NCBI GenBank assembly: GCA_963724455.1
Contig: CAVRUV010000024.1
Location: forward strand, 19 to 64,018
Origin: an uncultured Candidatus Woesearchaeota archaeon
GTDB taxonomy: Archaea; Nanobdellota; Nanobdellia; Woesearchaeales; UBA525
Direction of reading: 5' to 3'
Length of the DNA stretch: 64,000 nt
The notes under the pieces were generated by a model that saw nothing but the letters and a program-made list of their open reading frames with translations, was not told the origin of the DNA and ran no database searches. The translations under genes and the position numbers were made by a program. Of the stretch, positions 1,562 to 59,125 are shown piece after piece (positions within the stretch are counted from its first letter, which is position 1; each line of letters starts with the position of its first letter).

Positions 1562-1577
1562 AAAGGAGAACAAAGCA

Positions 1578-4058: not shown

Positions 4059-4116
4059 GCAGCGAATGAACTTATCAGCACCACTGACGCAACTAACCTC
4101 ATTTATCCTCAACCCA

Positions 4117-5144: not shown

Positions 5145-5549
5145 ATAGATGACTTTATCACTGTAAATTAATACTGAACTTTTCCTCTAATTTACCACAA
5201 AAGTTCAGTAAGCAAAATCGTCAACCAATTTCGGCCCGGTACACTTTATTTCCGCTTCAAACGGCTTTGAGGCACTTTACCTGCCCGAATGGAACGAAAC
5301 AAGCAGTACGTAAGGGTAACCTTATCCTGTTGATCCCCCCTACACTGATCGTGGAAATTGGTAACTACGGGGCGAAGAAACGAAGATATTGTTTCTTCCG
5401 AAGCTGTTTTTTGGCGCATATTTCCCCTTAATTTGAGCCCTACAAACTGGGCTCAGGTCAATTGACAGCCACTTGAACGGCAGGTCAGTGTCAGTCTAAA
5501 AGCCTTTCATTACTTTCTTAATTTGGGTCAAGAATAACCAGCTTTTGCT

Positions 5550-6749: not shown

Positions 6750-6974
6750 GTTTAGCCCGGGAAATATCTCTTCATAACGGCGCAGTTGCCGGACCAGGCT
6801 ACAATAGCCCGGCTTTGCCAACTCCACCCCGCTCGGTCAATCCGGAACGTATTCGTAGACTATACCGTCTACAAACCACCATGCGTACCGTTTACCGGCA
6901 TTGCCTTCTTACAGAGCGAACAAAGTGTAGTTTTGCGGGGAAAGTGGTTAATCTATTTCGTCAATAAACGGCAC

Positions 6975-7661
6975 TCAGGCCGGTACGCTTATTAGCTGAT
7001 GGGCCAGGTCGGTCAACGTCTTACCCTGCAAATCGGGGGGGGAGGCAAGGGGGTATAGCGACTGTCCATTGCGGTGTATAAAGGCCGTTTTCATGCCCCC
7101 ATGAGCCGCACCGGCAATATCCCAGCCGTGGGCGGCTATCAGCATGGTCTGGTCCGGGAGTAGGTTCAGTTTGTGCAGCACCTGACCGTAGGTGTCGGGG
7201 TGTGGTTTGTAACGTTTTACGGCATTTACTGTCCAGGTTGCTTCGAAGTAAGAACCCAGCCCGGTGGCCTCCATCTGCTTTTTCAGCGTTTCGTCGGGGG
7301 AGTTAGTGAGGGTAAAAAGGCGGAATCCAGCCTCTTTCAACAGCGACAATCCCTCCTCTACATCCGGGTGAGGCTCCACCTTAAGCATCGTTTGCAGGAG
7401 GGCCGATTTCTTTTCTGCCGGCAGCGCGTGCCCGAAAAACTCCTCCGTCATGGATAAAACGGCTTCGCCAATCTGCTTGAAATCATGAAACTGACCGGTG
7501 AGCGTATCCACCAGTGAATACTGCAACAGCAATTGAAACCAGTACGTAAAGGCATAGTCGTTCCGGAAAGTCTGGTTAAAAGCGTCCCGGACCCTGCTCA
7601 GGTCCAGCAGGGTTTCATTCACGTCAAAAATGAGGGCTTCAGGGCGGGTTGTCAGTTTCAT
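6975..7661 (-). CDS. HAD-superfamily hydrolase, type II haloacid dehalogenase-like
   Basis: HAD motif I (LIFDVNETLLDL), motif II (TLTNS), and a C-terminal region (MLIAAHGWDIAGAAHGGMKTAFI). Confidence 0.75.
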   Translation of the reverse strand: MKLTTRPEALIFDVNETLLDLSRVRDAFNQTFRNDYAFTYWFQLLLQYSLVDTLTGQFHDFKQIGEAVLSMTEEFFGHALPAEKKSALLQTMLKVEPHPDVEEGLSLLKEAGFRLFTLTNSPDETLKKQMEATGLGSYFEATWTVNAVKRYKPHPDTYGQVLHKLNLLPDQTMLIAAHGWDIAGAAHGGMKTAFIHRNGQSLYPLASPPDLQGKTLTDLAHQLISVPA

Positions 7662-7890
7662 ATGCAGGCGAAGTGTTTGCTCAGGTAACCGGAGAAGGGG
7701 CCAAATTGATTAGAAAACAACGCATTTTCTGGATTTTAGCCGGAGTACCGATTAGTCAATAGAACACCCGGCACATCGTTTCCGGCACGCCCCCCCCTTC
7801 CGGCAAGCGAATGGAGGGCGTACCGGAACCAGTCAGGATTTAAACACTATAGGACGAAGTTCCGTTGTTTTTGTTTCGCTCCTCACGTAT

Positions 7891-9729: not shown

Positions 9730-9763
9730 GCATCATTCACGGTTCTTACGAACGTAGTCAGTC

Positions 9764-9810
9764 AAAGGGGGTTGGTCCCACCACAACTCGTGGCGGGACC
9801 AACCCCCTTT
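9764..9810. terminator. bidirectional intrinsic terminator hairpin between convergent genes
   Basis: AAAGGGGGTTGGTCCC (9764-9779) is the exact reverse complement of GGGACCAACCCCCTTT (9795-9810). It sits between the stops of the GH2 gene (9729) and the dienelactone hydrolase gene (9837). Confidence 0.8.
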
Positions 9811-9836
9811 AGGTACCGGCATTGACCGGCCGCAAT

Positions 9837-10724
9837 TCAGGCCAGTTTCTGGCTGAAGAAGTCGATGGTGCGTTTCCAGGCCAGTTCAGCGGCCGCTTTA
9901 TCGTAGCGGGGCGTGGTATCGTTATGGAAACCGTGGTTAGCTTCAGCGTACATGTGCTCCGCGTAGGGTTTGTTGTTCGCTTTCAGCGCAGCTTCGTAGG
10001 CGGGCCACCCTTCGTTGACCCGGGTGTCGAGGGCGGCATAATGAATTAGTAGGGGGGCGTTGATCTTGGGTACGTCTTCGGCAGCGGGCTGGGCCCCATA
10101 AAACGGAACCGCAGCCGCCAGACCGGGTACCCGCACCGCCATCATGTTGGCAATCCAGCCCCCAAAACAGAACCCGACGACGCCGATATTGCCATTGCAG
10201 GCCGGGTTGCCTTTGAGGTAGTCGTAGGCCGCCATAAAGTCTTCCAGCATCTCGTTTCGGTTGCGCTTGCTTTGCATCTCCCGCCCCTGCTCGTCGTTGC
10301 CCGGATAACCACCCAGGGGGGTCAGAGCATCGGGTGCAATGGATACGAATCCGGTCAGTGCCGCCCGTCGGCCCACATCGGCGATGTACGGGTTAAGGCC
10401 CCGGTTTTCGTGGACGACGATGATGCCACCCAGTTTCTTTTTCGCGTTGGCAGGCATCGACAGTTGAGCCTTTATCGCCCCCCCTCCTTTGGGCGAGTTG
10501 TAGGTAATGTACTCGGTTTTCAGTCGCGGGTCATCGGCCTTCACCTGGATATTATCCTGGTAGTTGGGCATCAGAAAACTCATCAGCGACGTAACGGTCA
10601 GCCCACCCACGGCGTAGGCCGATAATTTCTGCACAAAGTCGCGCCGGTCGATGCGGCTGTGGGCAAAGTCGTCGTAGAGGTCAAATACCTCCTGGTTGAT
10701 ATCCTCTTTTCGCAGGTCACTCAT
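9837..10724 (-). CDS. dienelactone hydrolase family protein with a TAT-type signal
   Basis: RIDRRDFVQKLSAYAVGGL signal region. DLH motifs: IIVVHENRGLNPYI, and GVVGFCFGG with a nucleophile Cys. Confidence 0.8.
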   Translation of the reverse strand: MSDLRKEDINQEVFDLYDDFAHSRIDRRDFVQKLSAYAVGGLTVTSLMSFLMPNYQDNIQVKADDPRLKTEYITYNSPKGGGAIKAQLSMPANAKKKLGGIIVVHENRGLNPYIADVGRRAALTGFVSIAPDALTPLGGYPGNDEQGREMQSKRNRNEMLEDFMAAYDYLKGNPACNGNIGVVGFCFGGWIANMMAVRVPGLAAAVPFYGAQPAAEDVPKINAPLLIHYAALDTRVNEGWPAYEAALKANNKPYAEHMYAEANHGFHNDTTPRYDKAAAELAWKRTIDFFSQKLA

Positions 10725-11032
10725 ATCGATTGGGGAATAGTCCCGTTAAAACTACGCATTTAACTGGCACAAGAACTATGGTTTGCTAAAAGCCGTAACG
10801 TGGGTTTACCAATCGTCCACGTTGGCCGTACTTACCTTGACGCACCGTTATTTCTAGTAACGCCGGTCGAGATTCAGATCGTTTGACATTGGCCAGCACC
10901 AAGTCAATACCAACCAGCAGCCCCAGGCCGAAGATCGGGGTCTGACCAATACCATCATCGCAGCAATAGGGTGGTTTTTCTACCAGAAATTTAGTGGAAA
11001 CGCCTGACCGACTACCTGGCTCACTCCGAGCG

Positions 11033-12406
11033 TTACACTCCCCTGACTTCCCATCCCTTGCGGTACGTGCGACGCAGGTACTTATCCGCAGCAGGATAGT
11101 TAGTGAACTTCATCTGGGCGGAATTCCATTTTAATAATTGACCCGGTACTCGAATCGCCACCGTACCCAGCAAAACGGCCTCTGCCATCGGACCCGACTG
11201 GGCAAAATGAGAGTCTGTTTTTTCACCGCCCAGGCAGGCATCCACAAAATGATGGTAATGGTTTCGCTCAGTTAACGCAGGGTTGCTATGCGCTTTCACC
11301 TTACCCGTCGGGATAATCACGGGCATTTTTTGATGGGGAATCAGCAACGCCCCTTCGGTACCAATCAACATGGCCGATTCGGCCGGATATTCGCCATCGG
11401 TAAATAAATCCCTGATTTCCTGGGGTGGATAAAACTCCCCGTCGAACCACTCCAGCGGTAACGTATCAGACTCGGTCAGGTCGTTTCCCGGAAATACCCA
11501 GCTGATGTGGTTACCCTGGGCCAGGTATCGGCCCGACGTTCGGTTGACTCTTCCCACGATTTCTGTACTTCGGCCTGCACCGACAGGGGAGCTTTCAGGC
11601 CCAGGCCTTTCCAGACTGCGTCAAAAATATGGCAGCCGATATCCCCCGACCAGCCCGTACCGAAGTCCTGCCAGGTGCGCCAGATGGCGGGATGATAGAT
11701 GTCGGGGGCATAGGGTCGGACCGGGGCGGTGCCAATCCACTGATCCCAGTGCAAATACGCAGGAACCTCCTGACCCTGGGCCGGGCGAGGGCCAACGAGT
11801 CGGTACCTGGCCACCGCTCCGGGACGGTTCGAACATAAATAAGCATGCTTTACTTTACCGATAACTCCCTCCCTGATCCACTGTACGGCGGTTCGGTCGC
11901 CAAGGCTGGAAGCTACCTGAGTACCTAGTTGCGTGATTACGCCAGCTTTCACGGCCGCTTTGGTAAGGTCCCGCACTTCGGCTACATCATGACACATTGG
12001 TTTTTGACAGTACACGTGCTTTTTAAGCCGGATGGCCTGGTACGCAATGGGAAAGTGGTTGTGATCGGGCACCGTATACATTCACCGAGTCAAGGGCGTT
12101 CGCTTCGATCCGGAGCATTTCCCGCCAGTCGGTATACGTCCGGGCGCCGGGTACCAGCTCAGCTGCCCGTTTCAGGTTGTTTTCGTCCACATCGCAGAGT
12201 GCCACAATGTCTACCTGCGGATGTTTTTTAAACTGGTTCAGATCGCCCCACCCCATACCGCCTACGCCGATACAGGCGTGCCTGAGTTTAGCGGTACGGC
12301 CCGAAGCCTGTGCTGTTGTATTTAGTAAGAGTGGAGCAGCCATGGCGGCCGTGGCGGCCTTCACCAGAAATTCACGGCGGGTATCCTGATCAGGTTTGTT
12401 CTTCAT
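11033..12406 (-). pseudogene. Gfo/Idh/MocA-family oxidoreductase with TAT signal, split into three frames
   Basis: Three overlapping minus-strand ORFs (12023-12406, 11476-12081, 11033-11557) read as consecutive parts of one ~458-aa protein. The parts are the TAT signal RREFLVKAATAAMAAPLLL plus the Rossmann motif IGVGGMGWG, a middle domain, and a C-terminal domain. Confidence 0.7.
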
Positions 12407-12660
12407 TGCCCTTCAAGGTTTAGGTAAATCATTAATTACAGTATTACCCAAAAGGAAAAACGCCCGGCTTTATCCTTACTCCGATCTGATAATCAGTGAA
12501 TGTTGGTTATCCGGATATCGTACTAAGCTATGAGGGGTTAAACCGATCAAGGAGGGGACGTTTCCGGCTATTTGACCATAACGGACAAGAAAGTTACCGG
12601 TTGCCCCTATCCGGTAATCTGGCGCATTTACCCCAAATGGTTTAGCTTCCCATATACCTG

Positions 12661-13590
12661 TTATCCGGACGGTCTTTTGGTACCGGTGGTGACCTTATGA
12701 CCGGATGGCTGAGGAGTAGTCGCAAAACTCCCCATCTGCTGACGAAATGCTAAGGGTGTCTGTTGCGTGTACCGGCGAAATGTCTGCGCAAAATGCGAAA
12801 CGTTTTCGATACCTACCTGCTCAGCGATGATCGTTACGCTGGCACTGCTATTGGTCAGCAGTTCGCAGGCGTAGCGAATACGCAGGTCCGTAACGAACTG
12901 AGTCAGGGTCTGACCGGTTTGCGCCCGGAAGTACCGGCAGAAAGCCGCTGAATTCATGTTGGCTAAATTGGCTATCCGCCCCAGCTCTATGGGCTGGGTG
13001 AAGCATTCGTGCAGGTAGGCCATCACCTGGCTCATCCGGTCGCTTTGTTTTTGCCACTGCTGGCTGGGCAAATAGCGGGGCGACAGCGTTATCATATTAC
13101 TCATGTCGGCTATCTGCTGCAAAAGCGTCAACAACGCCATCAATTGCTTAAACCCGCTGAGTTCGGTCAATTGGGTTAGCTGCCCGGCCAGTTCACCGGT
13201 CATTGATTCATGAATTTTCAGCCCCTCCGCTGCCCGATCGAACAGGTGTTGAATAGCGCGGGTTTCGGGTAAGGCGAAAAACGTGTTTCCTAAAAAATCG
13301 GGGGCAAAACGAACTACAATAGCTTCGGCCACTAACTTATTTTCAGGTTGGTAATACGCTGGGTGGCACCGCCAATAGTGCGGCAGATGGCTACCCAGCA
13401 AGATGATATCACCCGGCCAAAATTGCCCAACGTGATGGCCAATGAAACGTGTTCCCGCACCGGCCAGAATATAATTGAGCTCCAGCTCCGGATGAAAATG
13501 CCAGGGATTGGCAAAATAGGGGACCTGCTCGCGCCGGGTATCAAAGGATATAGCCGGTCTATGCGGCACGGTCAGGAGGTTGGGGCGCAT
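12661..13590 (-). CDS. AraC-family transcriptional regulator (cupin N-domain plus HTH)
   Basis: C-terminal AraC HTH (LANMNSAAFCRYFRAQTGQTLTQFVTDLRIRYACELL...IAEQVGIENVSHFAQTFRRYTQQTPLAFR). Confidence 0.8.
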   Translation of the reverse strand: MRPNLLTVPHRPAISFDTRREQVPYFANPWHFHPELELNYILAGAGTRFIGHHVGQFWPGDIILLGSHLPHYWRCHPAYYQPENKLVAEAIVVRFAPDFLGNTFFALPETRAIQHLFDRAAEGLKIHESMTGELAGQLTQLTELSGFKQLMALLTLLQQIADMSNMITLSPRYLPSQQWQKQSDRMSQVMAYLHECFTQPIELGRIANLANMNSAAFCRYFRAQTGQTLTQFVTDLRIRYACELLTNSSASVTIIAEQVGIENVSHFAQTFRRYTQQTPLAFRQQMGSFATTPQPSGHKVTTGTKRPSG

Positions 13591-13684
13591 ACGTACTCAA
13601 CAAGGAAAAGAAAGACATTATTTGCTAAAACAGAGATTTATCAACTGCAAAAGCAAATTAAACAACAAAACTGGCAAAAACAGT

Positions 13685-14464
13685 ATGAAAATAATGCTGG
13701 ACAATACTCGAATTTTGCTAAAAAAAATAGCAGAGCGGATGCGTTTTACTGTATTGATTTGCCTCCTTTGGTTTCAGCAAACCGCCGTGGCCCAAACGTC
13801 TAACACGCTGACAGCCCAGGAAAAACGGCAGGGCTGGCAATTACTCTTCGACGGTAAAACCACGGCAAACTGGCGCGGAGCCTATGCCGATGCCTTCCCC
13901 GATAAAGGCTGGGTGGTGCGCGACGGCGAACTGCGGGGCGAACTCCACGACGGAGCCGAATCGGGCGACGCAGGCGACATTGTGACGCTTAAGACCTATA
14001 CAAACTTCGAACTTCGCTTCGACTGGAAACTGGGCGAAGGCGGCAACAGTGGCGTGAAGTACTTCATTGAGGAGCGACAGCCCAAACCCGACAAAGGGTC
14101 GCAGGCGGGTTATGAATACCAGCTTATCGACGATGCCACCTACATCTATAACGGTGAACGCCTGCCTGCCGACCTCAAAACCGCGTCTATCTATGACGTG
14201 GTAGCCGCCAATAAACCCGATGCGGCCATGAACCGCTGGCATTCGTCGCGGATAGTAGTCAATAACAATCACATCGAACACTGGCTCGATGGCCGGAAGG
14301 TGGTTGACACAAACCGCCGGACTAATGCCTTCCGGCAGGGCGTCACCAACAGTAAGTATAAAGACTACCCCGGTTTTGCTGACATTCCCAAAGGCCGGAT
14401 TCTGTTGCAGGATCACGGCCATAGTGTAGCCTTCAAAAACATTAAAATCAAAACCCTGCCATGA
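13685..14464 (+). CDS. DUF1080 (3-keto-disaccharide hydrolase-like) secreted protein
   Basis: GWQLLFDGKTTANWRG...WVVRDGEL...SGVKYFI...EYQLIDD...ILLQDHGHSVAFKNIKIK. The signal peptide MRFTVLICLLWFQQTAVAQ suggests the true start may be 13739. The stop overlaps the next start. Confidence 0.75.
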   Translation: MKIMLDNTRILLKKIAERMRFTVLICLLWFQQTAVAQTSNTLTAQEKRQGWQLLFDGKTTANWRGAYADAFPDKGWVVRDGELRGELHDGAESGDAGDIVTLKTYTNFELRFDWKLGEGGNSGVKYFIEERQPKPDKGSQAGYEYQLIDDATYIYNGERLPADLKTASIYDVVAANKPDAAMNRWHSSRIVVNNNHIEHWLDGRKVVDTNRRTNAFRQGVTNSKYKDYPGFADIPKGRILLQDHGHSVAFKNIKIKTLP

Positions 14465-15732
14465 ACCGTCGTTATTTTCTTAAAAAAACTACCGTCGCTG
14501 CGTCGTCCGTTGGAGCGGTTTGCGTTGGAATGCCGACAATTATCCCGGCTTCGGTGCTGGGGCGCACTGCGGGCGCAGGCCGACCGGCTCCCTCCGACCG
14601 CATTACGGTAGGGATGATTGGTGCCGGACGGCAGGGATACGGTCAGAATTTGCAGGGTGCCGACCATAAAGATACCGGAGCGCGGGTACCCGGTTTACTC
14701 GAACTGCCCGACGCGCAGGTGGTGGCCGTCTCGGACGTGGATAGCTGGCGGATGAACAAAGCCAAAACAACCATTGAGCAGTATTACGCCCGGAAAACAC
14801 CTAACGGTACCTATAAAGGCTGCGCTGCATACACCGATTTTCGGGAAATTATCAACCGGAAAGACATCGACGCGGTCATGATTTCGACCCCCGATTATTG
14901 GCACGTGCCCATGGGTATTCTGGCCGCCAAAGCCAACAAAGCAGTTAGTTGCGAAAAACCGCTTAGCATGAGCGTACAGCAGGGCCGCATGCTCGTGGAT
15001 GCCCTGATGAACCATGGTAAGGCGGGCCGGGCCGCCGGTTCGGTGCCCATCGTGAACCGAACCGACAGCGAATTTCGCTCTGTACGGCCCCAAAATCTGG
15101 CCGTCGAACTAGTCAGAAACGGGCGCATTGGCCAGTTGCAGCGCATCGATATTTCCTTTCCGTCGGACCCTGCACCCGTGCCACCACAGCCCGATATGGC
15201 CGTTCCGAAAGAACTCAACTACGACCTGTGGCTCGGACCCATGCCCTATGTGCCCTATACCGATATGCGGGTGCATACTCCGTTCAACCTCACAAACCGC
15301 CCCAACTGGATGCGGGTGGACACCTACGCTCAGGGTATGATTGCCAACTGGGGAGCGCATTATTTTGATATGGCCCAGTGGGCTAACGACAGCGAATATT
15401 CGGGACCGGTGGCCGTGAAAGGGACGGGGCAATTTCCCCATAGCCTATGGAATTCGATGATCAACTTTGAGGTCACCTACCGGTACGCCAACGGCGTTGA
15501 GATGACCTGCCAGCAGACACCCACCAGCCAGCCCGGCATCAAATACACTGGGTCAACGGGCTGGATTGAGGTAAAAAACTATCCCGGTGTCGTTAAGGCC
15601 AGCAATCCCGCCATCCTGACGTCGAAACCTGGCCCCGAAGAACTCGACCTGTCGAAAACGCTTTGGGACAAACCCGATTTTATCCAAGCCGTTAAAACAG
15701 GACGCAAAACCCTCGAGCCTATTGAAGTGGCT
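14461..15732 (+). CDS. Gfo/Idh/MocA-family oxidoreductase with TAT signal; 3' end truncated at junction 2
   Basis: MNRRYFLKKTTVAASSVGAV signal, then the Rossmann motif VGMIGAGRQG. The native sequence seems to end near ...KTLEPIEVA (15732). The remaining 33 codons of the ORF are AT-rich read-through into foreign sequence. Confidence 0.75.
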
Positions 15733-16625
15733 ATGCTTATTGCAAATGTGGTATTAGATTCTTTTTCAGAAGGGCTTCCATATAGGAGGACATTGTATCT
15801 TTCAGAGAGTGTTTCGATAGTTTTTACATAATTTTCAAAAGGCCATAATCTATAATCATTCATTCCTTTGTATTGCCCGGGATTTTTTCCACCGGCAGGA
15901 CATATCGCAATCCATTTTTTTCCTGTACTCTTTTGTATATCATAGAATTTTGTTCTCTTAAGATATGCATCTACGTGTTTTTCTTCTTTGCTATCAGGGT
16001 ACATTGTTGGCCTGAACAAAAGATCTTTTTTCAAGTCTTTACTCGCGAATGTAAAACCGAATGGAGCTAGTAAGTCAAGATAATACAATATTTCGTGTTG
16101 CGTACCCCGGTATTGCACATTGTATGTGTTCATATTTGGCAAGACTTTGGCTAATAATCCTGGTTCTTTTGCTCTAGTAAATCCGACTCTTATTTTTGCT
16201 ATAGGACGAGCAAACCATGAAGCAAGAGGAGTCTTATCCAGAACAAAGACGAGATCATATCTTGCACGCGTAAGCTCTCTTCTTATTTTTAATAATGCCA
16301 ATGTGTTACTAACACTTTTTTGAAACAATATTGCATCATCTACAAATATTGCTTTGTCAATTGCAGGGTTATTGATAATAGGGTCTTTAGACCATTTTCC
16401 GACAAAATAATCTATTTCTGCATCCTTGAATATTTCTTTTAATTGACGCACAAATGGTGTTGTAAAGATGACATCTCCTATTGCGCCAGCTTTTATGATG
16501 AGAATTTTTTTAATATGTTTATGAGGTATTTGTATTGCTTGTTTTTTTATGATAGCTTTTGTGTTATTTGTTTTTGTTACATTACTTCTTTTGCTTGTTT
16601 TGTTTTGCTTGTTTTGTTTTGCCAT
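15733..16625 (-). CDS. glycosyltransferase family 9 (heptosyltransferase-like); 3' end truncated at junction 2
   Basis: KKILIIKAGAIGDVIFTTPFVRQLKEIFKDAEIDYFV is the GT9 N-terminal signature. After about aa 297 (...LLYGSPSEKESNTTFAIS) the ORF reads antisense of the Gfo gene. Confidence 0.7.
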
Positions 16626-37742: not shown

Positions 37743-37838
37743 AGTTGGTATAGTCTAATGGTAGGACGGGGGACTGTGGTGTTCAGCAATGGACACAGAA
37801 ATCCCCAGGCCCGGGTTCGATTCCCGGTACCGACTCCA
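37743..37838 (+). tRNA. tRNA-His (GUG) with a ~21-nt intron after position 37 and an encoded CCA
   Basis: Manual fold: acceptor GTTGGTA/TACCGAC, U8, D-stem GTCT/GGAC with loop AATGGTA, anticodon stem GGGGA/TCCCC, loop CT-GTG-G...A. The intron (~37780-37800) has CTGTG/CACAG pairing (helix-bulge-helix-like). T-arm CCGGG-TTCGATT-CCCGG, then T73 and CCA. Base -1 (37743) is A and can pair with T73. Confidence 0.8.
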
Positions 37839-37870
37839 TTTTTTGTTTCATCAAATACATCACTTTTTTT

Positions 37871-38947
37871 CTAATTATTGATGTGCGGACAAGGGAATCT
37901 ATCTAAATCTTCTACTGTTGCAATAGCACCATTTGGTTGTCTTGCACCTTGCGAAAATTTAACAAACGTACTGATGCCTAAATTTCTACGAATAAATGTA
38001 GCGCTATTGGTCAGTTCATTTCCTACTAAAATACCTACCTCTATATCGCTACTTTTAATGTAATCTTGTACTGCAACAGAAAATCCTTGCGCACCTACGA
38101 ATAGTACCGGGTCTGCACCAGACATTATGCCTGCGTCTATGAATTCTCCATTTGTTAGAATGATTTGTTTTGTTGCTTTGATTGAACGGTATTTCTTCAC
38201 CATTTCTATATTATCATCATAGTAATTACCATGATTTATCAATTCTGGATTGAATGGAGCTAGTGCGGTTTTGACTTCGTCTGTTACTTGTCCCAAAACA
38301 ATTATTTTTTCTGGTTTTTTTGTAGTTAGTAATCCTACGATATCGTTGATATTATTTTTATTAGCAAAAAGAATATATGATCTGTCTACCATTGCAAATG
38401 GAGCGGCGCTGATTGCATCGTAAGCATATGTGTCATTTACAATGATATATCTGTTTATGTTCGGAAGGCGTCTTGCCAATTCGAAATTCAAGTTAGATGA
38501 TTGTATTTCTATTGGATTATCATAGCCTCTGCTTCTTAGAATATCGGTATACCCAACTACAAAAGGTCTTTCTCGACTTGATAATACAAGAATATTCTTG
38601 TCAGTAGTAGGAATGGAATATAGTAAAATCGTAGAGTGTTTTGTACTAACAAGGAAATTATTAGGAGTACCTAATAAATTCGCATATAACATTCCACTAT
38701 ATACATCACGCCAATCTGCAGAATTTATGATAATGCGGTCTCCGCCAATTGCAGGAAGTTCAGTGATTGTAGGTATTTGCGGCACTTGTGGTTGAAGAGT
38801 AGTATTTGTAGGAATATTTCCTTGTACTATTTGTGGTTCTCCTACGCCATCATTATTTATTATCGTGTTTGTATTCTGACCACAACCCGTTATAAATAAG
38901 CAGAAAATAAATAATATAGTAAAAATTATCGTTGTTTTGTCTTTCAC
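37871..38947 (-). CDS. secreted lipoprotein-like protein
   Basis: N-terminus MKDKTTIIFTILFIFCLFITGCGQ is a lipobox-like LFITGC. A Pro/Gln/Thr linker and an alpha/beta-looking body follow. Confidence 0.5.
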   Translation of the reverse strand: MKDKTTIIFTILFIFCLFITGCGQNTNTIINNDGVGEPQIVQGNIPTNTTLQPQVPQIPTITELPAIGGDRIIINSADWRDVYSGMLYANLLGTPNNFLVSTKHSTILLYSIPTTDKNILVLSSRERPFVVGYTDILRSRGYDNPIEIQSSNLNFELARRLPNINRYIIVNDTYAYDAISAAPFAMVDRSYILFANKNNINDIVGLLTTKKPEKIIVLGQVTDEVKTALAPFNPELINHGNYYDDNIEMVKKYRSIKATKQIILTNGEFIDAGIMSGADPVLFVGAQGFSVAVQDYIKSSDIEVGILVGNELTNSATFIRRNLGISTFVKFSQGARQPNGAIATVEDLDRFPCPHINN

Positions 38948-39031: not shown

Positions 39032-40840
39032 ATGGGGTTAAAGCAGTTAGTTATTCTCATAATATGTATTCTATGTATACTGCCAGTGCTATCATTTGCA
39101 GATGAATGTAGTTATAAATTTCCAGTAACAAGAACTGTTGCAAAAGAACATCTTATTTGTCAAGGAACTGTAATAGATGATGCATTAGAACTAAGAAATA
39201 TTCAGCAAATAAATCAAACTAATCCTTGTTGGTTGAGCTTTGAAATATACAATAAAGAACAATATGCTGTAAAAGCCACAATTAGATATTCTGTTTTAAT
39301 AACAAATTCATCAGGCACATCTACAAAAGAAGATGTATACTATGGGAATGTAATAGAGTCTCAGAAAGCTAAACGTTTGAATGTATATGAAGATACTGCA
39401 ACTAGTTGTGAACTTATCAATAACAGTGTAACGTTCATTTATCAAAGTTATCAGAATACATCATTATCTACTAAGAAAGAACCTGAAACTACGTTAGAAT
39501 GTATTCCTTGTAATTCTATAGAATGTTCTTCAAAATTATGTTATCAAGGATATTGTATACAGACTTGTCCAGATGGAATGGCATCTTGTAATGGGATTTG
39601 TGTTTCAGTAGGCACTATAAAACAAAATCAACCATATACTTGTGACTTCGAATGTAAAACACACATAGGTGATGGAAAGACTTGTGTCGATTGTAAGAGT
39701 AATCAAGATTGCAATACAGGATTGTGCAATACAGATACTGGAACGTGTACTGAATGTTTCAATGGAATTTGCAAATGTGATTATTTGGGACCTAACTATT
39801 CTCCTTGTAATAATAATCAAAGCTGTGTTGTACCATCTACAAAACAAAATGGTGTGGCAGCTTTGTGTCAAGAAGAGTGTATTTCAGATACAATGGAAAA
39901 TAATGTTTGCAAACCTTCGAATAAAGAAAAATTGATTTCTTGGGGAATAATAGCACTTATCTTTGTAGTCGTAGTACTTATAGTATATTTGTTGTATAAG
40001 AATAATAGTTTACAAAAAGAGATAAATAAAAAACAAAAAAAGAAAACAGAACTTGATAATACAATAAATGATATTGTTACAAACTTAACTCAAGTCGTTG
40101 CTTCAAGAACAAAAGAAAAAGAAGATAAAATTACTAGCGAATCAAACAAGAAAATAGAAAAAGCACTTGCACAAATGAAAGAAGTCAGTGCACAACATCA
40201 ACAAATTATAGAAGATAAAAAACAAGCAATAATTGAAAAAGAAGAAGCAGAGAATCTTGCAAAAGAAGCAAAAAAGAATCTAGATAATGAACGTAAAAAA
40301 TTAAAAAAACAAGAAGAAGACCTTATAGAACAAAGACAAGAAAATAAAAAACTTGAAATCGATATAAAAAATCAACAAACAGATATACAAAAATTACGCA
40401 CAGAATTAGAAGATGCTAATAGAGAATATCTTGATAAAAATAAAGAATATGTACAGGATTGTTTAGTTCCTAGACCTAGTCAGTATGCAAATGGACATCA
40501 AGTAATAAGAAACCCAAAATATTCATTTTATGATTGTTTCTATCATCCTGAAATAAAACGCTTTGAAGATTATCCTCCAAAACATTTAGTTCATAGATGG
40601 CGTGCTGAAAAATATCTGTGGGAAAAACACAGAGACTTCTATGAAAAAACCTACGGAGATATAGATTTTGAGAGTATGCAAGTACATCACATCGATGGAG
40701 ACAAATACAATAACTCTACTGAAAATCTTGCAATTATATCGAAAGAAGAACACAGATTGCTTCATAGAAAACATAAAATTTATGATTTGAAATCTGGACA
40801 ACTTGCATTAGAAGATGAAGGTATAGAATTACCTAATTAA
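39032..40840 (+). CDS. single-pass membrane protein: signal peptide, Cys-rich ectodomain, TM, long Lys/Glu coiled coil, C-terminal HNH nuclease domain
   Basis: Signal LVILIICILCILPVLSFA. About 30 Cys fall between aa ~155 and 290 (e.g. CVDCKSNQDCNTGLCNTDTGTCTEC). TM WGIIALIFVVVVLIVYLLY is followed by KNNSLQKEINKKQKKK (positive-inside). An EK-rich heptad-like region of about 140 aa follows. HNH: MQVHHIDGDKYNNSTENLAIISKEEHRLLH. Confidence 0.7.
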   Translation: MGLKQLVILIICILCILPVLSFADECSYKFPVTRTVAKEHLICQGTVIDDALELRNIQQINQTNPCWLSFEIYNKEQYAVKATIRYSVLITNSSGTSTKEDVYYGNVIESQKAKRLNVYEDTATSCELINNSVTFIYQSYQNTSLSTKKEPETTLECIPCNSIECSSKLCYQGYCIQTCPDGMASCNGICVSVGTIKQNQPYTCDFECKTHIGDGKTCVDCKSNQDCNTGLCNTDTGTCTECFNGICKCDYLGPNYSPCNNNQSCVVPSTKQNGVAALCQEECISDTMENNVCKPSNKEKLISWGIIALIFVVVVLIVYLLYKNNSLQKEINKKQKKKTELDNTINDIVTNLTQVVASRTKEKEDKITSESNKKIEKALAQMKEVSAQHQQIIEDKKQAIIEKEEAENLAKEAKKNLDNERKKLKKQEEDLIEQRQENKKLEIDIKNQQTDIQKLRTELEDANREYLDKNKEYVQDCLVPRPSQYANGHQVIRNPKYSFYDCFYHPEIKRFEDYPPKHLVHRWRAEKYLWEKHRDFYEKTYGDIDFESMQVHHIDGDKYNNSTENLAIISKEEHRLLHRKHKIYDLKSGQLALEDEGIELPN

Positions 40841-40864
40841 AATTAATTATGTGTTGAGATACTC

Positions 40865-41380
40865 ATGAATCAAAAAGAAAAACTCATAAGTATTATAGGA
40901 GATAATTCATTTAGAGAATTAGATTCTAAAATTCCTGTCAGAGTTATACAAGATATGTCCTTAAATTACTCTGATTATTGGTTAACAAAATCCGAACAAG
41001 AAATATTAGATTCTTATTCTGAATTAATAAATAACACACAACAATGGACAATTCCTAAACAAGTTGGGGGTATAATAATATTAACAAATTTTATGCATGA
41101 TTTATTGAAGAGAATTGTGAAAGAAAGAGAAACTGATACTAGTATAATTAAAGATGTAATGGATTTTGATTTGCATTTTCTTATTATATTTTGTTGTGCT
41201 AGATATGACATTCCTGATGAGTATTTTATAGCTATGATGGAATTGAAACAATTTAGAAATATGATATCTCACGATTTTAATTCTGTGATGGACACTAGCT
41301 TTCATGAGAGTATAACTGCCATATCTAAAGGAAGTTTATTAATGGTAGTATTGGTTCAAATTTTACGAAACGAACACTAA
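40865..41380 (+). CDS. hypothetical protein with an Rx4H motif (HEPN-like candidate RNase)
   Basis: 171 aa. ELKQFRNMISHDF matches the HEPN Rx4-6H signature in a helical context. It begins 24 nt after the HNH gene stop. Confidence 0.45.
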   Translation: MNQKEKLISIIGDNSFRELDSKIPVRVIQDMSLNYSDYWLTKSEQEILDSYSELINNTQQWTIPKQVGGIIILTNFMHDLLKRIVKERETDTSIIKDVMDFDLHFLIIFCCARYDIPDEYFIAMMELKQFRNMISHDFNSVMDTSFHESITAISKGSLLMVVLVQILRNEH

Positions 41381-41422
41381 AACACAAGCTTTTTCTTCTA
41401 GAACATATTTCTTTATGAATAT

Positions 41423-41866
41423 ATGGATAGACAAGGAAAAGAGAAAGAAGCCGGAATAATAATTACAATTATTTTAGTAGTTGCATTTGCAATAAAATTA
41501 GCACAATTCTTATTTCCAGTATTCATTATTTTAGGAATAATATGTTTAATGTTATTGATTGCATCTTTTGTTTGGTTTGAAGACGCATCAGTATACATCG
41601 CAATAGCATTAGGAATCTGTTTATTAGGTGGAACTATTTGCTGGGGGGTCGGATATGAGTTTGGTGAGAGTGCATTCGGAGTAGCGTTTACTACGTCAGC
41701 CGATGCTATTAATCAAGTGCGTGGTGTTGAGAAACAAGTAGCAATAACTATGTTGAATGAGACTCAAAAGATAAACAAAGACTTAAACCAAAATACTTCT
41801 CCAGACTCATCAAAAGCAATTGATACATCTATAGAATTAACTAAAGTAGCAATAAAAGTAAGTTAA
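41423..41866 (+). CDS. small membrane protein (3 TM) with a polar C-terminal tail
   Basis: Hydrophobic segments IIITIILVVAFAIKLAQFLFPVFIILGIICLMLLIASFVWF and VYIAIALGICLLGGTICWGVGY. Confidence 0.45.
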   Translation: MDRQGKEKEAGIIITIILVVAFAIKLAQFLFPVFIILGIICLMLLIASFVWFEDASVYIAIALGICLLGGTICWGVGYEFGESAFGVAFTTSADAINQVRGVEKQVAITMLNETQKINKDLNQNTSPDSSKAIDTSIELTKVAIKVS

Positions 41867-43048
41867 TTATTTAGTATTTATTTCTGAATATAGACTATTT
41901 TTTATATCTTCTAATTCTTGGCATAATTGTTTTTGTTCTTTTTTAAGCGATTTAACTGATTCAAGTTTATTTATTTGTGGTGTTAGTTCTATTTTTAATT
42001 CTTCAAGTGAGTTATACTTTATAGTGTAATTTTTTTTCATTTGTGCGAACCATACCGGCGCACTATATGAATATTCTGCTGAGCCATCAGTTAACAAATA
42101 CATTGATATTTCGCTTAGATATTCAGGTAGTAAATTTGGATCAGTTATTTTTATGTTGCATTTTTCTGATATGAGGTTGATAGTTTCTTTATCTGCAGCA
42201 TTAATTCCGGAAATGAAGAAATTATGTATTTTTGAATTATATATTTTTTTTAATTTTTTTAATAACTCTGGCTGTTCGATAAAATGTATTAAATGTTTAT
42301 TTTTAAGATTATTCCACTCTGATGTACTTTGATATCTTGAATAACTAGAGCATTGTGTCTGTAATTCAATTATTTCATCATATAATGGCGCATATATTTC
42401 TCTATTAAGTTGTTTTTTTTCTTTTTTTCTTTCAATTTTTGACATAACGATGTATGTTGCTAGTGCGCCAATTATTGCTGCAAAAAATGAACTTATTATT
42501 GATATCCATGTTTGCATTTGCGATTTCTGTGCCGACAAAATGTTCTGTGCCTCTGCCATTGATAACACATGAACAGTTTTTGTATATACTAATATGTGAC
42601 TATTATAATAATAAGATTTCACATTTATGTTGTTGAGTTCTGTAAAGTTAACAATAGTATACTGCACTTTCCACAGTCCTGGAACATCAAAGTTATAGTT
42701 TTGATTTGTAATGTATTCTTTACCTCTTGTATATGGTCCATCTGGTAATTTACTAACTCCATAGTTTTTCATCTCGCTATCAGGAGAAAATATGTAATAT
42801 ACAATCCAGTAAGAATCTGTTATATTTTCTTCAAAACTTGATTTTGTCGTGAAAACTATGGTGGCTTGTTCACCTTCTACTGGTAATAGTATTGATTCTG
42901 AAGTTTCTATATATGAGTTCAAATCTACGCGATTAACTAGTGGTATTTCTGATAAATTAACAACATTTGAACTATTATATTCTGTAGCAACAGCCATTTT
43001 AAGACAGATTATAGAGATACAAATAATCAATAATGTTTTTTTAAACAT
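41867..43048 (-). CDS. single-pass membrane protein (signal peptide, ~165-aa ectodomain, TM, ~190-aa cytoplasmic helical domain)
   Basis: Signal MFKKTLLIICISIICLKMAVA. TM WISIISSFFAAIIGALATYIVM is followed by SKIERKKEKKQ. No catalytic motif recognised. Confidence 0.45.
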   Translation of the reverse strand: MFKKTLLIICISIICLKMAVATEYNSSNVVNLSEIPLVNRVDLNSYIETSESILLPVEGEQATIVFTTKSSFEENITDSYWIVYYIFSPDSEMKNYGVSKLPDGPYTRGKEYITNQNYNFDVPGLWKVQYTIVNFTELNNINVKSYYYNSHILVYTKTVHVLSMAEAQNILSAQKSQMQTWISIISSFFAAIIGALATYIVMSKIERKKEKKQLNREIYAPLYDEIIELQTQCSSYSRYQSTSEWNNLKNKHLIHFIEQPELLKKLKKIYNSKIHNFFISGINAADKETINLISEKCNIKITDPNLLPEYLSEISMYLLTDGSAEYSYSAPVWFAQMKKNYTIKYNSLEELKIELTPQINKLESVKSLKKEQKQLCQELEDIKNSLYSEINTK

Positions 43049-43148
43049 TTTAGCCTCACATATCTAAATTTATGATGGTTTGTTTATGTTTCTATTTATT
43101 GATTTGTATCCTGATATTGTGTAACAACCTTAAAAGTCCTCCCTTTAT

Positions 43149-43343
43149 TTAACGACAATCAAACAATTCTTCAATATGTTTCTTCTTCAAGACCTTTGTA
43201 ATATTGTAAGCTTGTTGAAGAGAAGGATTGTATTTGTCTTGCTCAAGAGCGACGATGATCTGCCGCGTTACATCTACTTTTCTAGCCAGTTCTTCTTGAG
43301 TCATTCCTAGCTCTTTTCTAGCTTCAGCAATCGATGTTTTCAT
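43149..43343 (-). CDS. XRE-family HTH transcriptional regulator (64 aa)
   Basis: [52 protein letters not shown] is a canonical Cro/C1 HTH. The short start at 43343 is preferred because the long ORF version overlaps the divergent gene at 43449. Confidence 0.75.
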
Positions 43344-43448
43344 GCAGTGCGCGCCAAATATATGTTTGATATAATTTTTGCAATAAGACCGCCGACTCCA
43401 TTTTTCTACAGTAATCTTTATCAATGCAATATTTGATGATAGGTAGTT

Positions 43449-44384
43449 ATGGGTATCTTCGATCATCTTTTTGGAACTAAGAAGAGCATTGCGCATGAAC
43501 TCTTAGAAAAGACCAAAAATCCGCAAGCGATATGGAAAGAACTAGAAAATATGATTTTGGCTTTTAAGGGTCGTTCATATGTATCATTATGTTATTCTGA
43601 AGTGGATCGTACGGTGGCAAATTTTTCAAGAGCAGAAAACTTGTTGAATGACATGGAGACCCAGTTATTAGAGCAGATAGTTGATGTGGATGAAGAGGTT
43701 GCAATCGAAGAAGAGGTATCTGTAGAGTTAACCGATTTTATTAAATTGTCTCATTATAAACGTGATGAAAAACTTTGGGATATTGTAGAAACCGAAAAAC
43801 ATTTTTTAATGTTATTTAAATCAATAAAATATATTTGCAGACAAATGATTGATGTTATTAGATTGATACGTCAAGATGAAAGTAATCGTAGGGCGAATAT
43901 TATTGCACTTTTTGAATATATAAAAAAATTAGAGGAATTATATATTCCATTGACTGAACATCTGCATTCAAATCCTGAAAATTATAAAGAAATAATTAGA
44001 GTGGCAACAGCAGTACTACGTCAAGAAGAGATAAAAGAACGCTTTAAGAAGAAAGAAAAAGCGGTAGAAGATAAATTTGTCACAAAAATGGTAACACAAA
44101 TGTCTGGTTTATACGAATCGCACCGTAGTCATCGTAAACTTGCAGAGAGTATTTTTCTACAACTTATTGATGATACCGGATTTCCTTCCACAGATTCTGA
44201 AGAGCTTCTCAAACATGTTGATAGGATGGAAAAGCTTTTAGATGAAAATGCACATATGTATGCCCTTGTAAAACGTTTACGGCCACGTTACGATGACGAA
44301 AAAATCAGAATTGTCATTGAAGCATTTAGAATTGCGTATGCAGAAGGTAATTTTGATAATCTTGGGTCTGCATTTGCGACGTAA
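43449..44384 (+). CDS. hypothetical all-helical protein, divergent from the XRE gene
   Basis: 311-aa ORF. No motif recognised. Confidence 0.4.
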
Positions 44385-58612: not shown

Positions 58613-58630
58613 TAAAAAGAAGTGAATATT

Positions 58631-59125
58631 ATGGCATCCTACCTAGGTCGAAACGTAAATCTCGCATTGCTCGTTATCATAATCGGCGTTATTGTAGCGC
58701 TTGTTGGAACAACAGTGTTTTTTCAAAGAAGCTTGCAGAATAGAACGCAAGAGTATGAAAGTACTACTGGAACACTATCAGAGTGCCAAGTAGCGCTCGC
58801 CAACTACCAAGATAAGTTTACACAAGCAACGCAGCAAGTCAATAAGACTGCGCAGGATATTAGAAAGTATGATCAGTTGTATGAACAGCGTACTGGCGAA
58901 CTAAAGGATACTCAGACACAATTAGATAATGCACAAAAACAATCCATTGTAGAGCGTCAACGAGGAGATAGCCTGCAGACTAGTTTGACTCAGGAGATGG
59001 ATTCGAATAGACAGCTTAATTCAACAGTAAATAGTTTAACTCAGCAATTGAGCTCTTTAGATAGTAAATTAAGAAACATCTGTCGACAATGTAGTTCAAG
59101 CGGTGGAGCCTGTTCGTCTTGTTGA
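58631..59125 (+). CDS. single-TM coiled-coil protein with a C-terminal Cys cluster
   Basis: TM LALLVIIIGVIVALVGTTVFF, a Gln-rich heptad-like region, and C-terminal CRQCSSSGGACSSC. Confidence 0.5.
   Translation: MASYLGRNVNLALLVIIIGVIVALVGTTVFFQRSLQNRTQEYESTTGTLSECQVALANYQDKFTQATQQVNKTAQDIRKYDQLYEQRTGELKDTQTQLDNAQKQSIVERQRGDSLQTSLTQEMDSNRQLNSTVNSLTQQLSSLDSKLRNICRQCSSSGGACSSC

What the first reader, a model, noticed from the sequence alone, without database searches (positions are those of the whole stretch)
39032..44384. tRNA-adjacent block: membrane-tethered Cys-rich-ectodomain HNH nuclease, Rx4H (HEPN-like) protein, more single-pass membrane proteins and an XRE regulator
ORF 39032-40840 combines domains I do not know as a described architecture.
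- It has a cleavable signal peptide and a ~290-aa ectodomain with about 30 cysteines in CxxxxDC/GxC-type repeats.
- One TM follows, with a strongly basic inner flank, then a ~140-aa Lys/Glu coiled coil.
- A cytoplasmic HNH nuclease motif closes the protein (HHIDGDKYNNSTENLAIISKEEHRLLH).

Twenty-four nt downstream is a 171-aa protein carrying FRNMISH, the Rx4H HEPN RNase signature. A 3-TM protein follows. A convergent second protein has the layout signal peptide, ectodomain, TM, cytoplasmic helical domain. Last comes a divergent pair of a 64-aa XRE repressor and a 311-aa unknown.

The block starts about 1.2 kb downstream of an intron-containing tRNA-His, separated from it only by the lipoprotein-like gene at 37871-38947; tRNA genes are classic island integration sites. 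By eye it looks even more AT-rich than its flanks, but I did not compute this.

An outside-sensing receptor wired through a coiled coil to an intracellular DNase, with an RNase partner, would fit two roles. One is a surface-triggered abortive-infection or defence module. The other is a host-contact-triggered nucleic-acid processing module in an episymbiotic archaeon. Neither role is established.
Basis: partly seen in the sequence, partly recalled or inferred. Interest (0 to 1): 0.78.

Follow-up and report, generated by a model that had tools for sequence, protein, structure and literature searches.

The report
Membrane-tethered HNH nuclease family in archaea
The 602-residue protein is real but not a one-off: it belongs to a large, unnamed family of archaeal surface-receptor-like proteins that carry a DNA-cutting enzyme on the inside of the membrane, usually sit among defence genes, and are not specifically paired with the neighbouring HEPN-like gene.

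Summary
The 602-aa ORF has:
- a signal-like N-terminus;
- an ectodomain with 27 Cys;
- one TM helix with a K-rich inner flank;
- a K/E coiled coil of about 150 aa;
- a C-terminal HNH_3 domain (Pfam E=8e-11) with the catalytic residues intact.

The block has lower GC (0.30) than the contig background (0.38) and lies 1.2 kb from an intron-containing tRNA with a GTG anticodon.

The protein is not an orphan. An exhaustive HMMER search found 256 related clusters. Of the best 150, 66 share the complete plan. Public sources call them "hypothetical" or mis-name them "ATP synthase b", and Pfam covers only the HNH.

The 171-aa neighbour is probably a divergent HEPN protein: RNxxxH is invariant in 9 members, but the profile and fold hits are weak. 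Its family follows many different upstream genes. None of seven other HNH-family loci carries it, so the proposed two-gene HNH+HEPN system is not supported.

Family members lie next to R-M, toxin-antitoxin, Abi, MazG or mobile-element genes in 8 of 8 contexts.

Best reading (inferred): a single-chain transmembrane sensor-nuclease acting in defence. It resembles Zorya II in logic but is not a member.

The parts
37744..37838 (+). tRNA with GTG anticodon (His), intron at 37/38, encoded CCA
   Evidence: ARAGORN; Rfam tRNA 56.7 bits; sequence read
37830..37843 (+). Copy 1 of an exact 14-nt direct repeat, CCGACTCCATTTTT, covering the tRNA 3' end; possible attL
   Evidence: A match of at least 14 nt to the tRNA 3' region within +/-15 kb occurred in 12 of 1000 local Markov shuffles.
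43392..43405 (+). Copy 2 of the 14-nt repeat, in the XRE/p311 intergenic region; possible attR
   Evidence: Identity does not extend beyond the 14 nt.
37871..38947 (-). 358-aa lipoprotein-like protein; GC typical of the flanks (0.346)
   Evidence: weak CW_binding_2 hit, E=5e-4
39032..40840 (+). p602: member of the membrane-tethered HNH family
39032..39100 (+). Signal-peptide-like N-terminus (aa 1-23, ...VLSFA|DE)
   Evidence: Hydropathy; helix 2-20 in the model. Present in most family members.
39107..39499 (+). Extracellular Ig-like beta-sandwich (aa 26-156); the most variable globular part of the family
   Evidence: AF2 pLDDT above 90. Foldseek matches to ApaG, DUF1425 and the TMEM106B luminal domain, E about 1e-4. 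Mean pairwise identity 0.19.
39500..39916 (+). Extracellular Cys-rich region (aa 157-295) with 12 cysteines conserved in at least 90% of the family and one (C265) invariant
   Evidence: No Pfam family covers it.
39926..39994 (+). Single TM helix (aa ~299-321) followed by a K-rich flank
   Evidence: Family-wide flank charge, K+R within 15 aa: 3.0 outside, 5.0 inside.
40004..40462 (+). Cytoplasmic K/E-rich coiled-coil linker (aa ~325-477)
   Evidence: AF2 helices 297-361 and 373-477. Across the family the segment from the TM to the HNH motif measures 85-342 aa.
40469..40837 (+). Cytoplasmic HNH_3 (beta-beta-alpha-Me) nuclease domain (aa 480-602); H552 H553 D555 N560 N565 H574
   Evidence: Pfam; PHROGs HNH families; AF2 pLDDT 94-98 with E550-553, E566-569, H571-580. 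Catalytic residues kept in 70-71 of 74 sequences.
40865..41380 (+). p171: all-helical protein, probable divergent HEPN; RNxxxH motif at aa 131-136 (nt 41255-41272)
41423..41866 (+). p147: small membrane protein with 2-3 TM segments; no relatives found in the fetched loci
41867..43048 (-). p393: signal-like N-terminus, ectodomain, TM at aa 184-202, cytoplasmic helical part; unrelated to the p602 family
43149..43343 (-). 64-aa XRE-type HTH regulator
   Evidence: HTH_3, E=1.9e-13; PHROGs repressors
43449..44384 (+). p311: unknown protein with no family hit; GC 0.335, close to the flanks

Best explanation
**Shown.** ORF 39032-40840 encodes one member of a large, unannotated family of type-I membrane proteins found in DPANN-type archaeal metagenome contigs. 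The shared plan is:
- a Sec-type signal;
- an extracellular Ig-like beta-sandwich plus a disulfide-rich region;
- one TM helix;
- a long cytoplasmic coiled coil;
- a C-terminal HNH_3 nuclease with all catalytic residues conserved.

In this window the gene lies in a small low-GC islet next to a tRNA-His gene. A probable HEPN-family gene and other unrelated membrane-protein genes lie in the same islet.

**Inferred.** The protein is a self-contained transmembrane sensor-effector.
1. The variable outer domain registers an event at the cell surface, such as virus attachment or another cell contact.
2. The coiled coil transmits or permits dimerisation.
3. The HNH domain, held just under the membrane, nicks or cuts DNA there. 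The target would be incoming foreign DNA or, in an abortive mode, the cell's own DNA.

The HEPN-like gene and the XRE gene are independent residents of the same variable or defence islet. They are not obligate partners of the HNH protein.
For: **Family and architecture**
- 256 hits at E<=1e-3, with full-length matches.
- tblastn matches over aa 3-602 at E 1e-67 to 1e-72.
- 66 of the top 150 representatives have the complete plan. The median is 17 Cys outside and 1 inside.
- AF2 model pLDDT 85.9, with a beta-beta-alpha-Me domain at pLDDT 94-98.
- H552, H553, N565 and H574 are kept in 70-71 of 74 sequences.

**Topology**
- A signal-like N-terminus, Cys confined to the N-terminal side, and a more basic flank on the C-terminal side of the TM. 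This holds in p602 and across the family.

**Variable sensor, conserved effector**
- Mean pairwise identity is 0.19 for the beta-sandwich and 0.40 for the HNH core.
- Many hits share only the coiled coil plus HNH.

**Defence or mobile neighbourhoods in 8 of 8 contexts**
- MNT plus a 141-aa gene.
- MazG.
- Eco57I/N6_Mtase plus TaqI_C.
- MazG-like, SLFN-type helicase and PemK/MazE.
- NOV_C/DUF3883.
- AbiEi/AbiEii and PIN/RHH.
- TraC-like ATPase, DUF2779, C5 methylase and ORF6N.
- This window: HEPN-like gene and XRE.

**Islet**
- GC trough and a 14-nt repeat of the tRNA 3' end.
Against: - No experiment and no dedicated topology predictor was run.
- PADLOC calls no system.
- The neighbourhood enrichment rests on 8 contexts with no background rate for these genomes, where TA genes may be common.
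- No conserved operon partner exists that could point to a trigger.
- The ectodomain fold is generic, so no ligand can be suggested.
- HNH_3 domains are also typical of selfish homing endonucleases.
- The 14-nt repeat is short (P about 0.01) and no integrase is present, so the island status is only suggestive.
Confidence: 0.45

Rival explanations
1. p602 and p171 form a dedicated two-gene module: a surface-triggered receptor-DNase with a HEPN RNase partner, acting as an abortive-infection system.
For: - The genes are 24 nt apart on the same strand.
- p171 keeps an invariant RNxxxH motif.
- Weak hits converge on the HEPN clan.
- One p171 homolog (L002) has a small HNH_3 gene two genes upstream.
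- HEPN-HNH associations are known in R-M contexts (PMC3710099).
Against: - None of 7 other family loci has a p171 relative.
- p171 homologs abut at least 6 unrelated kinds of upstream gene.
- The L002 HNH is soluble, 80 aa long and only 29% identical over 41 aa.
Confidence: 0.08
2. A nutritional or host-contact role. In an episymbiotic DPANN archaeon the ectodomain binds the host surface. The submembrane HNH then processes host nucleic acid entering at the contact site, to salvage nucleotides.
For: - p171 relatives come from Nanoarchaeota and Woesearchaeota MAGs, and the window is archaeal.
- The ectodomain is an adhesin-like Ig fold with a disulfide-rich region.
- The nuclease residues are conserved.
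- From general knowledge: DPANN archaea commonly lack nucleotide biosynthesis.
Against: - Neighbours are R-M, TA, Abi and MGE genes, not transport or salvage genes.
- There is no associated channel or DNA translocase, apart from one TraC-like ATPase.
- HNH_3 enzymes are nickases or endonucleases, not processive degraders.
Confidence: 0.17
3. A polymorphic-toxin-like arrangement. p602 is an exported C-terminal HNH toxin and p171 is its immunity protein.
For: - A signal peptide, a C-terminal HNH and a small gene immediately downstream.
- HNH toxins are common in polymorphic toxin systems (PMC3482391, listed).
Against: - The TM and its basic inner flank place the HNH in the cytoplasm.
- In this family the C-terminus is the conserved part and the N-terminus the variable part, the reverse of polymorphic toxins.
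- p171 does not co-vary with HNH partners.
Confidence: 0.04
4. Non-defence structural roles. One option is that the HNH domain serves mainly as a DNA-binding anchor, tethering the chromosome or a plasmid to the membrane. Another is that it is a domesticated or selfish homing-endonuclease module fused to a surface protein, with no signalling.
For: - HNH_3 is the homing-endonuclease type, and viral contigs carry many close HNH cores.
- A long coiled coil is a typical tether. Public sources mis-annotate members as ATP synthase b or similar.
Against: - Catalytic residues are under strong conservation in 70-71 of 74 members, which argues for activity.
- The fusion is stable across more than 250 clusters, so it is not a sporadic insertion.
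Confidence: 0.12

Closest known systems
Zorya type II anti-phage system (ZorA/ZorB membrane complex with a long cytoplasmic tail, plus the ZorE HNH nickase)
   Same: - A membrane-embedded part that faces the envelope.
- A long helical cytoplasmic extension.
- An HNH nuclease effector acting at the membrane or infection site (PMC11890865; PMC11946911).
   Different: - Zorya is a multi-protein bacterial system built on a MotAB-like ion-driven 5:2 motor. Here everything is one archaeal polypeptide with a single TM and no MotA/MotB domain.
- The only similarity PADLOC finds is a weak coiled-coil match to ZorA (E=0.0046).
HNH_3 (PF13392) / His-Me finger endonucleases of the I-HmuI type: phage and homing endonucleases
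   Same: The C-terminal domain is a bona fide member, with Pfam score above the cut-off, a beta-beta-alpha-Me fold and the catalytic H/N/H residues.
   Different: - Known HNH_3 proteins are small and soluble, or are fused to DNA-binding modules.
- The superfamily survey lists TM segments only for extracellular nucleases, polymorphic toxins and ENPPs (PMC5714182). It lists no signal peptide-ectodomain-TM-coiled coil-cytoplasmic HNH architecture.
Ire1-type receptors (lumenal sensor, TM, cytoplasmic KEN/HEPN RNase)
   Same: The same logic: a single-pass receptor whose outer domain controls an intracellular nuclease, probably through oligomerisation. Ire1 and C6orf70 are discussed as membrane-anchored HEPN proteins in PMC3710099.
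   Different: No homology. The effector here is an HNH DNase, not a kinase-RNase. This is an archaeal protein and the trigger is unknown.
HEPN superfamily (HepT/DUF86, DUF4145, Csm6-HEPN), for the 171-aa neighbour
   Same: - An invariant R-N-x-x-x-H in a C-terminal helix, and an all-helical fold.
- Weak hits to five HEPN-clan Pfam families across members.
- The best-probability Foldseek targets are HepT toxins.
- It is found next to R-M genes, as many HEPN proteins are.
   Different: - No profile hit reaches a curated threshold.
- No MNT partner.
- It has an extra N-terminal region of about 60 aa.
- It forms its own small family, with about a dozen loci found, all from archaeal MAGs or metagenomes.

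Membership tests
HNH_3 / His-Me finger nuclease (p602 C-terminus) | Profile match above Pfam's gathering score | tested here: met
   41.8 bits against a cut-off of 24.8, E=8.4e-11. 29 of 33 family members also match.
HNH_3 / His-Me finger nuclease (p602 C-terminus) | Beta-beta-alpha-Me fold with the catalytic His at the end of strand 1, the Asn, and the metal-binding His in the helix | tested here: met
   AF2 gives E550-553, E566-569 and H571-580 at pLDDT 94-98. H553, N565 and H574 are kept in 70-71 of 74 sequences.
HNH_3 / His-Me finger nuclease (p602 C-terminus) | Metal-dependent DNA cleavage or nicking | not testable with these tools
   Needs biochemistry on aa ~325-602, with H553A as control.
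HEPN superfamily (p171) | Rx4-6H motif at the conserved position | tested here: met
   FRNM[IV][SAG]H is invariant for R131, N132 and H136 in 9 members. It aligns to the motif region of the HepT-like profile, positions 73-106 of 120.
HEPN superfamily (p171) | Significant profile match to a HEPN family | tested here: not met
   Best hits are 14.7-15 bits (E 0.003-0.06), below cut-offs of 23-28 bits. The hits do recur in five HEPN-clan families: DUF4145, Csm6_HEPN, Cthe2314, HepT and RiboL-PSP.
HEPN superfamily (p171) | Four-helix up-down HEPN fold | tested here: inconclusive
   The model is all-helical with pLDDT 78. Foldseek E-values are above 1, but the highest-probability targets are HepT/HEPN structures: 1wwp 0.63, 7bxo 0.60, 6m6u 0.44, with TM by target 0.50-0.55.
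HEPN-MNT toxin-antitoxin pair | Adjacent minimal nucleotidyltransferase gene | tested here: not met
   There is no NTP_transf_2 gene in the block or beside the p171 homologs.
Zorya II | ZorA/ZorB (MotA/MotB-like) membrane motor genes | tested here: not met
   PADLOC gives only a coiled-coil-level ZorA hit, E=0.0046, aa 328-461. p602 has a single TM.
Polymorphic toxin / immunity system | Exported, variable C-terminal toxin with a co-varying downstream immunity gene | tested here: not met
   The HNH is predicted to be cytoplasmic. The C-terminus is the conserved part. p171 is not linked to HNH partners.
tRNA-integrated mobile element | Direct repeat of the tRNA 3' end bounding the element | tested here: inconclusive
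   An exact 14-nt repeat at 37830-37843 and 43392-43405. It occurred in 12 of 1000 shuffles, and there is no extension beyond 14 nt.
tRNA-integrated mobile element | Integrase or recombinase gene | tested here: not met
   No integrase-type hit for any block protein in Pfam, NCBIfam or PHROGs.
Known anti-phage systems (PADLOC-DB v2) | Significant match of the block proteins to system models | tested here: not met
   Only generic HTH and coiled-coil hits.

The most novel reading that the evidence does not exclude
The family is a previously unrecognised class of single-polypeptide transmembrane immune receptors in ultra-small (DPANN-type) archaea.
- A fast-evolving extracellular Ig-like/Cys-rich domain detects virus docking or a foreign-cell contact.
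- A coiled coil then switches on an HNH DNase parked under the membrane, which cuts DNA at the point of entry.

This would be a one-protein counterpart of multi-component envelope-sensing systems such as Zorya.
Probability: 0.3. Interest if true: 0.8.

Novelty: new variant of a known kind. Interest (0 to 1): 0.62.

Why it matters
Defence in DPANN and other ultra-small archaea is poorly charted. Standard catalogues such as PADLOC and Pfam see nothing here except a generic HNH domain.

A family of more than 250 clusters that wires an extracellular, diversifying domain directly to an intracellular DNase would be a compact model for how a prokaryotic cell couples surface events to nucleic-acid cleavage. 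The prediction is directly testable: one gene, one catalytic histidine.

There is also a practical point. The family was invisible to word-indexed homology search, and public sources annotate it as "hypothetical" or "ATP synthase b". It is therefore likely to be missed in defensome surveys.

Tried and rejected
- **Word-indexed homology searches for p602.** Both the single sequence and the 33-sequence profile found only the protein itself. Coiled-coil words swamped the candidate list. The exhaustive HMMER search was needed.
- **PDB sequence searches.** Searches with the HNH region and with the p171 profile gave only noise.
- **BFVD fold search of p171.** Nothing found.
- **Viral contig scans.** No p171 relatives. 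For the p602 profile, only ordinary phage HNH_3 cores matching aa ~530-580. There is therefore no evidence that the family is viral.
- **Shared Cys-rich module.** I tested whether the Cys-rich proteins upstream of other p171 homologs share p602's extracellular module. BLASTP gave E=0.004 in a 5-sequence database, and hhalign gave probability 30% and 0.2%. Homology is not demonstrable. Those proteins instead carry Dicty_CTDC repeats.
- **p393 as a paralog of p602.** Only the TM aligns.
- **p311 against the L006 ORF with a similar N-terminus.** Only 18 aa match, so I rejected it.
- **Bacterial promoter/terminator scan.** Uninformative for an archaeon.

Full report
**1. Observation check**

p602 (39032-40840) has these features:
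- a hydrophobic N-terminal segment at aa 5-23, ending VLSFA|DE;
- 27 cysteines between aa 24 and 300, and only two after aa 330;
- one TM helix at aa 301-319;
- a lysine-rich flank after the TM (LLYKNNSLQKEINKKQKKK);
- a K/E/Q-rich stretch at aa 335-475.

Pfam places HNH_3 at aa 532-575 (E=8.4e-11, 41.8 bits, cut-off 24.8). PHROGs HNH families agree.

The other genes are also as described:
- The 171-aa ORF starts 24 nt downstream and contains FRNMISH.
- p147 has 2-3 hydrophobic segments.
- p393 has a signal-like N-terminus, a TM at aa 184-202 and a basic inner flank.
- The 64-aa ORF is an XRE-type HTH (E=1.9e-13).
- p311 hits nothing.

The window is archaeal from about 16 kb onward. It carries an archaeal SRP RNA and an intron-containing tRNA at 37744-37838 with a GTG anticodon.

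Block GC is 0.302 against 0.379 on both flanks. p602, p171 and p393 are the lowest, at 0.267-0.299.

**2. The 602-aa protein belongs to a large family**

Word-indexed searches found nothing but the protein itself. The exhaustive HMMER search against 1.84 billion cluster representatives gave 256 proteins at E<=1e-3, 37 at E<=1e-10 and 7 at E<=1e-30.

Several hits align over almost the whole length: P0018, P0023, P0040 and P0094. tblastn against two fetched loci covers aa 3-602 at E 1e-67 to 1e-72.

Of the best 150 representatives, 66 show the complete plan:
- a signal-like N-terminus;
- a Cys-rich ectodomain, with a median of 17 Cys outside and 1 inside;
- one TM;
- 85-342 aa, mostly K/E-rich linker, between the TM and the HNH motif;
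- a C-terminal HNH.

The remaining hits are fragments or small soluble HNH_3 proteins.

In a 74-sequence alignment (A5), the nuclease residues are kept in 70-71 of 74 sequences: H521, H552, H553, D555, N560, N565, L566 and H574. The exceptions are C-terminally truncated entries. Thirteen ectodomain cysteines are conserved at 90% or more, one of them (C265) invariant.

AlphaFold2 with this alignment gives mean pLDDT 85.9:

| Residues | Predicted structure |
|---|---|
| 29-157 | beta-sandwich, pLDDT above 90 |
| 157-295 | strand-poor Cys-rich region |
| 297-361 | helix that includes the TM |
| 373-477 | second long helix |
| 480-600 | beta-beta-alpha-Me domain, pLDDT 94-98 |

H553 sits at the end of strand 1, N565 before strand 2 and H574 in the helix.

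Foldseek identifies the N-terminal domain only as a generic Ig-like sandwich of the ApaG, DUF1425 or TMEM106B-luminal type, at E about 1e-4.

Pfam covers only the HNH part in all 33 members scanned. NCBIfam and PADLOC give only coiled-coil noise. Public sources call members "hypothetical protein" or, wrongly, "ATP synthase subunit b".

I found no description of this architecture in the papers searched. The His-Me finger superfamily survey mentions TM segments only for extracellular nucleases, polymorphic toxins and ENPPs.

**3. The 171-aa protein**

It has a small family of its own. About a dozen loci were found, including Nanoarchaeota and Woesearchaeota MAGs. None is in viral contigs.

R131, N132 and H136 are invariant in nine members. 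The remaining evidence for HEPN is weak but consistent:
- Profile hits are sub-threshold, but they fall in five HEPN-clan families: DUF4145, Csm6_HEPN, Cthe2314, HepT-like and RiboL-PSP. DUF4145 is a HEPN family according to PMC3710099.
- The AF2 model is all-helical (pLDDT 78).
- No Foldseek hit is significant. The only targets with appreciable probability are HepT toxins, at 0.44-0.63.

I rate HEPN membership as probable (about 0.7), not established.

**4. Is HNH + HEPN a system? No.**

p171 homologs start within a few bases of the stop codon of the upstream gene, but that gene differs from locus to locus:

| Locus | Upstream gene |
|---|---|
| L006, L008, L012 | multi-TM protein with Dicty_CTDC Cys repeats |
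| L009 | 504-aa TM protein |
| L007 | 369-aa lipoprotein |
| L013, L015 | type I R-M S subunit |
| L005 | DUF6577 protein |
| L002 | a 157-aa gene; a soluble 80-aa HNH_3 gene lies one gene further upstream |

Four MAG loci have a Bro-N protein downstream.

Conversely, none of seven other p602-family loci has a relative of p171, p147, p393 or p311.

**5. What the family's neighbourhoods say**

The eight contexts available are listed below.

| Family member | Neighbouring genes |
|---|---|
| P0011 | NTP_transf_2 (MNT) plus a 141-aa gene |
| P0012 | MazG |
| P0016 | Eco57I/N6_Mtase plus TaqI_C |
| P0018 | MazG-like, SLFN-type helicase, PemK/MazE |
| P0013 | NOV_C (DUF3883, a predicted REase-like domain per PMC3710099) |
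| P0023 | AbiEi/AbiEii, then PIN/RHH |
| P0024 | TraC-like ATPase, DUF2779, C5 methylase, ORF6N |
| p602 (this window) | HEPN-like gene and XRE |

There is no constant partner, but defence, TA or mobile-element genes lie close by in every case. This is the signature of a defence-island resident. With only eight contexts and no background rate, it remains an inference.

**6. Island status in this window**

An exact 14-nt direct repeat of the tRNA 3' end (CCGACTCCATTTTT) lies at 37830-37843 and at 43392-43405. A match that long to the tRNA 3' region appeared in 12 of 1000 local shuffles.

The pair brackets p358, p602, p171, p147, p393 and the XRE gene. Against island status:
- there is no integrase;
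- the repeat does not extend beyond 14 nt;
- the GC trough covers only 39.0-43.0 kb.

Acquisition by insertion at the tRNA is plausible but unproven.

**7. Mechanism**

*Shown:* the architecture, the conservation pattern and the intact catalytic motif.

*Supported by rules, not by a dedicated predictor:* the N-out/C-in topology. The supporting features are the signal-like N-terminus, the restriction of Cys to the N-terminal side, and the more basic C-terminal flank of the TM (family means 5.0 against 3.0 K+R).

*Inferred:*
- The distal beta-sandwich is the most variable globular part, with mean pairwise identity 0.19 against 0.40 for the HNH core. It would act as a sensor.
- The coiled coil of variable length would tether or dimerise the HNH under the membrane.
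- DNA would be nicked or cut there.

The closest working analogy is Zorya II. There a membrane complex with a long cytoplasmic tail recruits the ZorE HNH nickase to the infection site (PMC11890865). Membership in Zorya fails, because there is no MotAB-like component.

Rival readings are scored separately:
- nucleic-acid salvage at a host contact site;
- a polymorphic toxin with an immunity gene;
- a DNA tether or a domesticated homing endonuclease.

**8. Verdict**

The interesting object is not a unique six-gene block. It is an unannotated, widespread family of membrane-tethered HNH nucleases. I rate it a new variant of a known kind, namely envelope-linked nuclease defence or receptor-nuclease proteins.

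Interest is 0.62. The novel reading, a single-chain transmembrane immune receptor, has probability about 0.3.

Noticed in passing
window 1-15600: The first ~15.5 kb has GC ~0.55 and bacterial-type genes: RhaT, an AraC regulator, GH2, DLH/YqhI and GFO_IDH_MocA. The rest has GC ~0.37 and archaeal markers: AglB/STT3, archaeal SRP RNA and an intron-containing tRNA. ORFs 14461-15831 (+) and 15579-16625 (-) overlap by ~250 nt at the junction. This looks like an assembly chimera or a large transfer.
   Followed up: partly
L006 10001-11361; L007 8102-9468; L008 10001-10795; L009 10001-10732: In four MAGs the p171-like gene is followed directly by a Bro-N/DinD-like gene of ~282 aa whose N-terminal sequences are visibly very similar between MAGs. 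The gene upstream differs in each. This suggests a two-gene cassette that moves between genomes.
   Followed up: partly
L002 579-1052: A 157-aa ORF lies between a small HNH_3 gene and the p171 homolog. It carries its own Rx4H-like motif (FWRCPLIHQGY) and has no Pfam hit. It may be a second HEPN-like gene.
   Followed up: no
L008 9091-9999 (also L006 9268-9999, L012 211-1116): Archaeal multi-TM proteins end in a Cys-rich module. In the L008 copy, the one scanned, the module matches the Dictyostelium CTDC repeat (PF00526, E=2.7e-11), which is an unexpected family for DPANN archaea. These are the genes that abut p171 homologs.
   Followed up: partly
window 37743-37838: The GTG-anticodon tRNA has A at position -1, T as discriminator and a genomically encoded CCA. 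ARAGORN could not name the isotype. Whether a G-1 is added post-transcriptionally was not examined.
   Followed up: no
window 58616-59122: A 169-aa ORF gives a weak hit (E=3e-7) to the TM plus coiled-coil part of the family HMM. It has no HNH, so this is probably generic coiled-coil similarity.
   Followed up: no
protein P0163 (NCBI OGX06464.1): One full-length family member is deposited under an Omnitrophica (bacterial) MAG, on a 6.4-kb contig. Either it is mis-binned or the family extends beyond archaea.
   Followed up: no
L019 6245-7209: The closest homolog of p602 (P0011) is followed by an MNT gene and a 141-aa gene. That gene has RVRNEITY, a HEPN-like motif with Tyr in place of His, and no Pfam hit.
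   Followed up: partly
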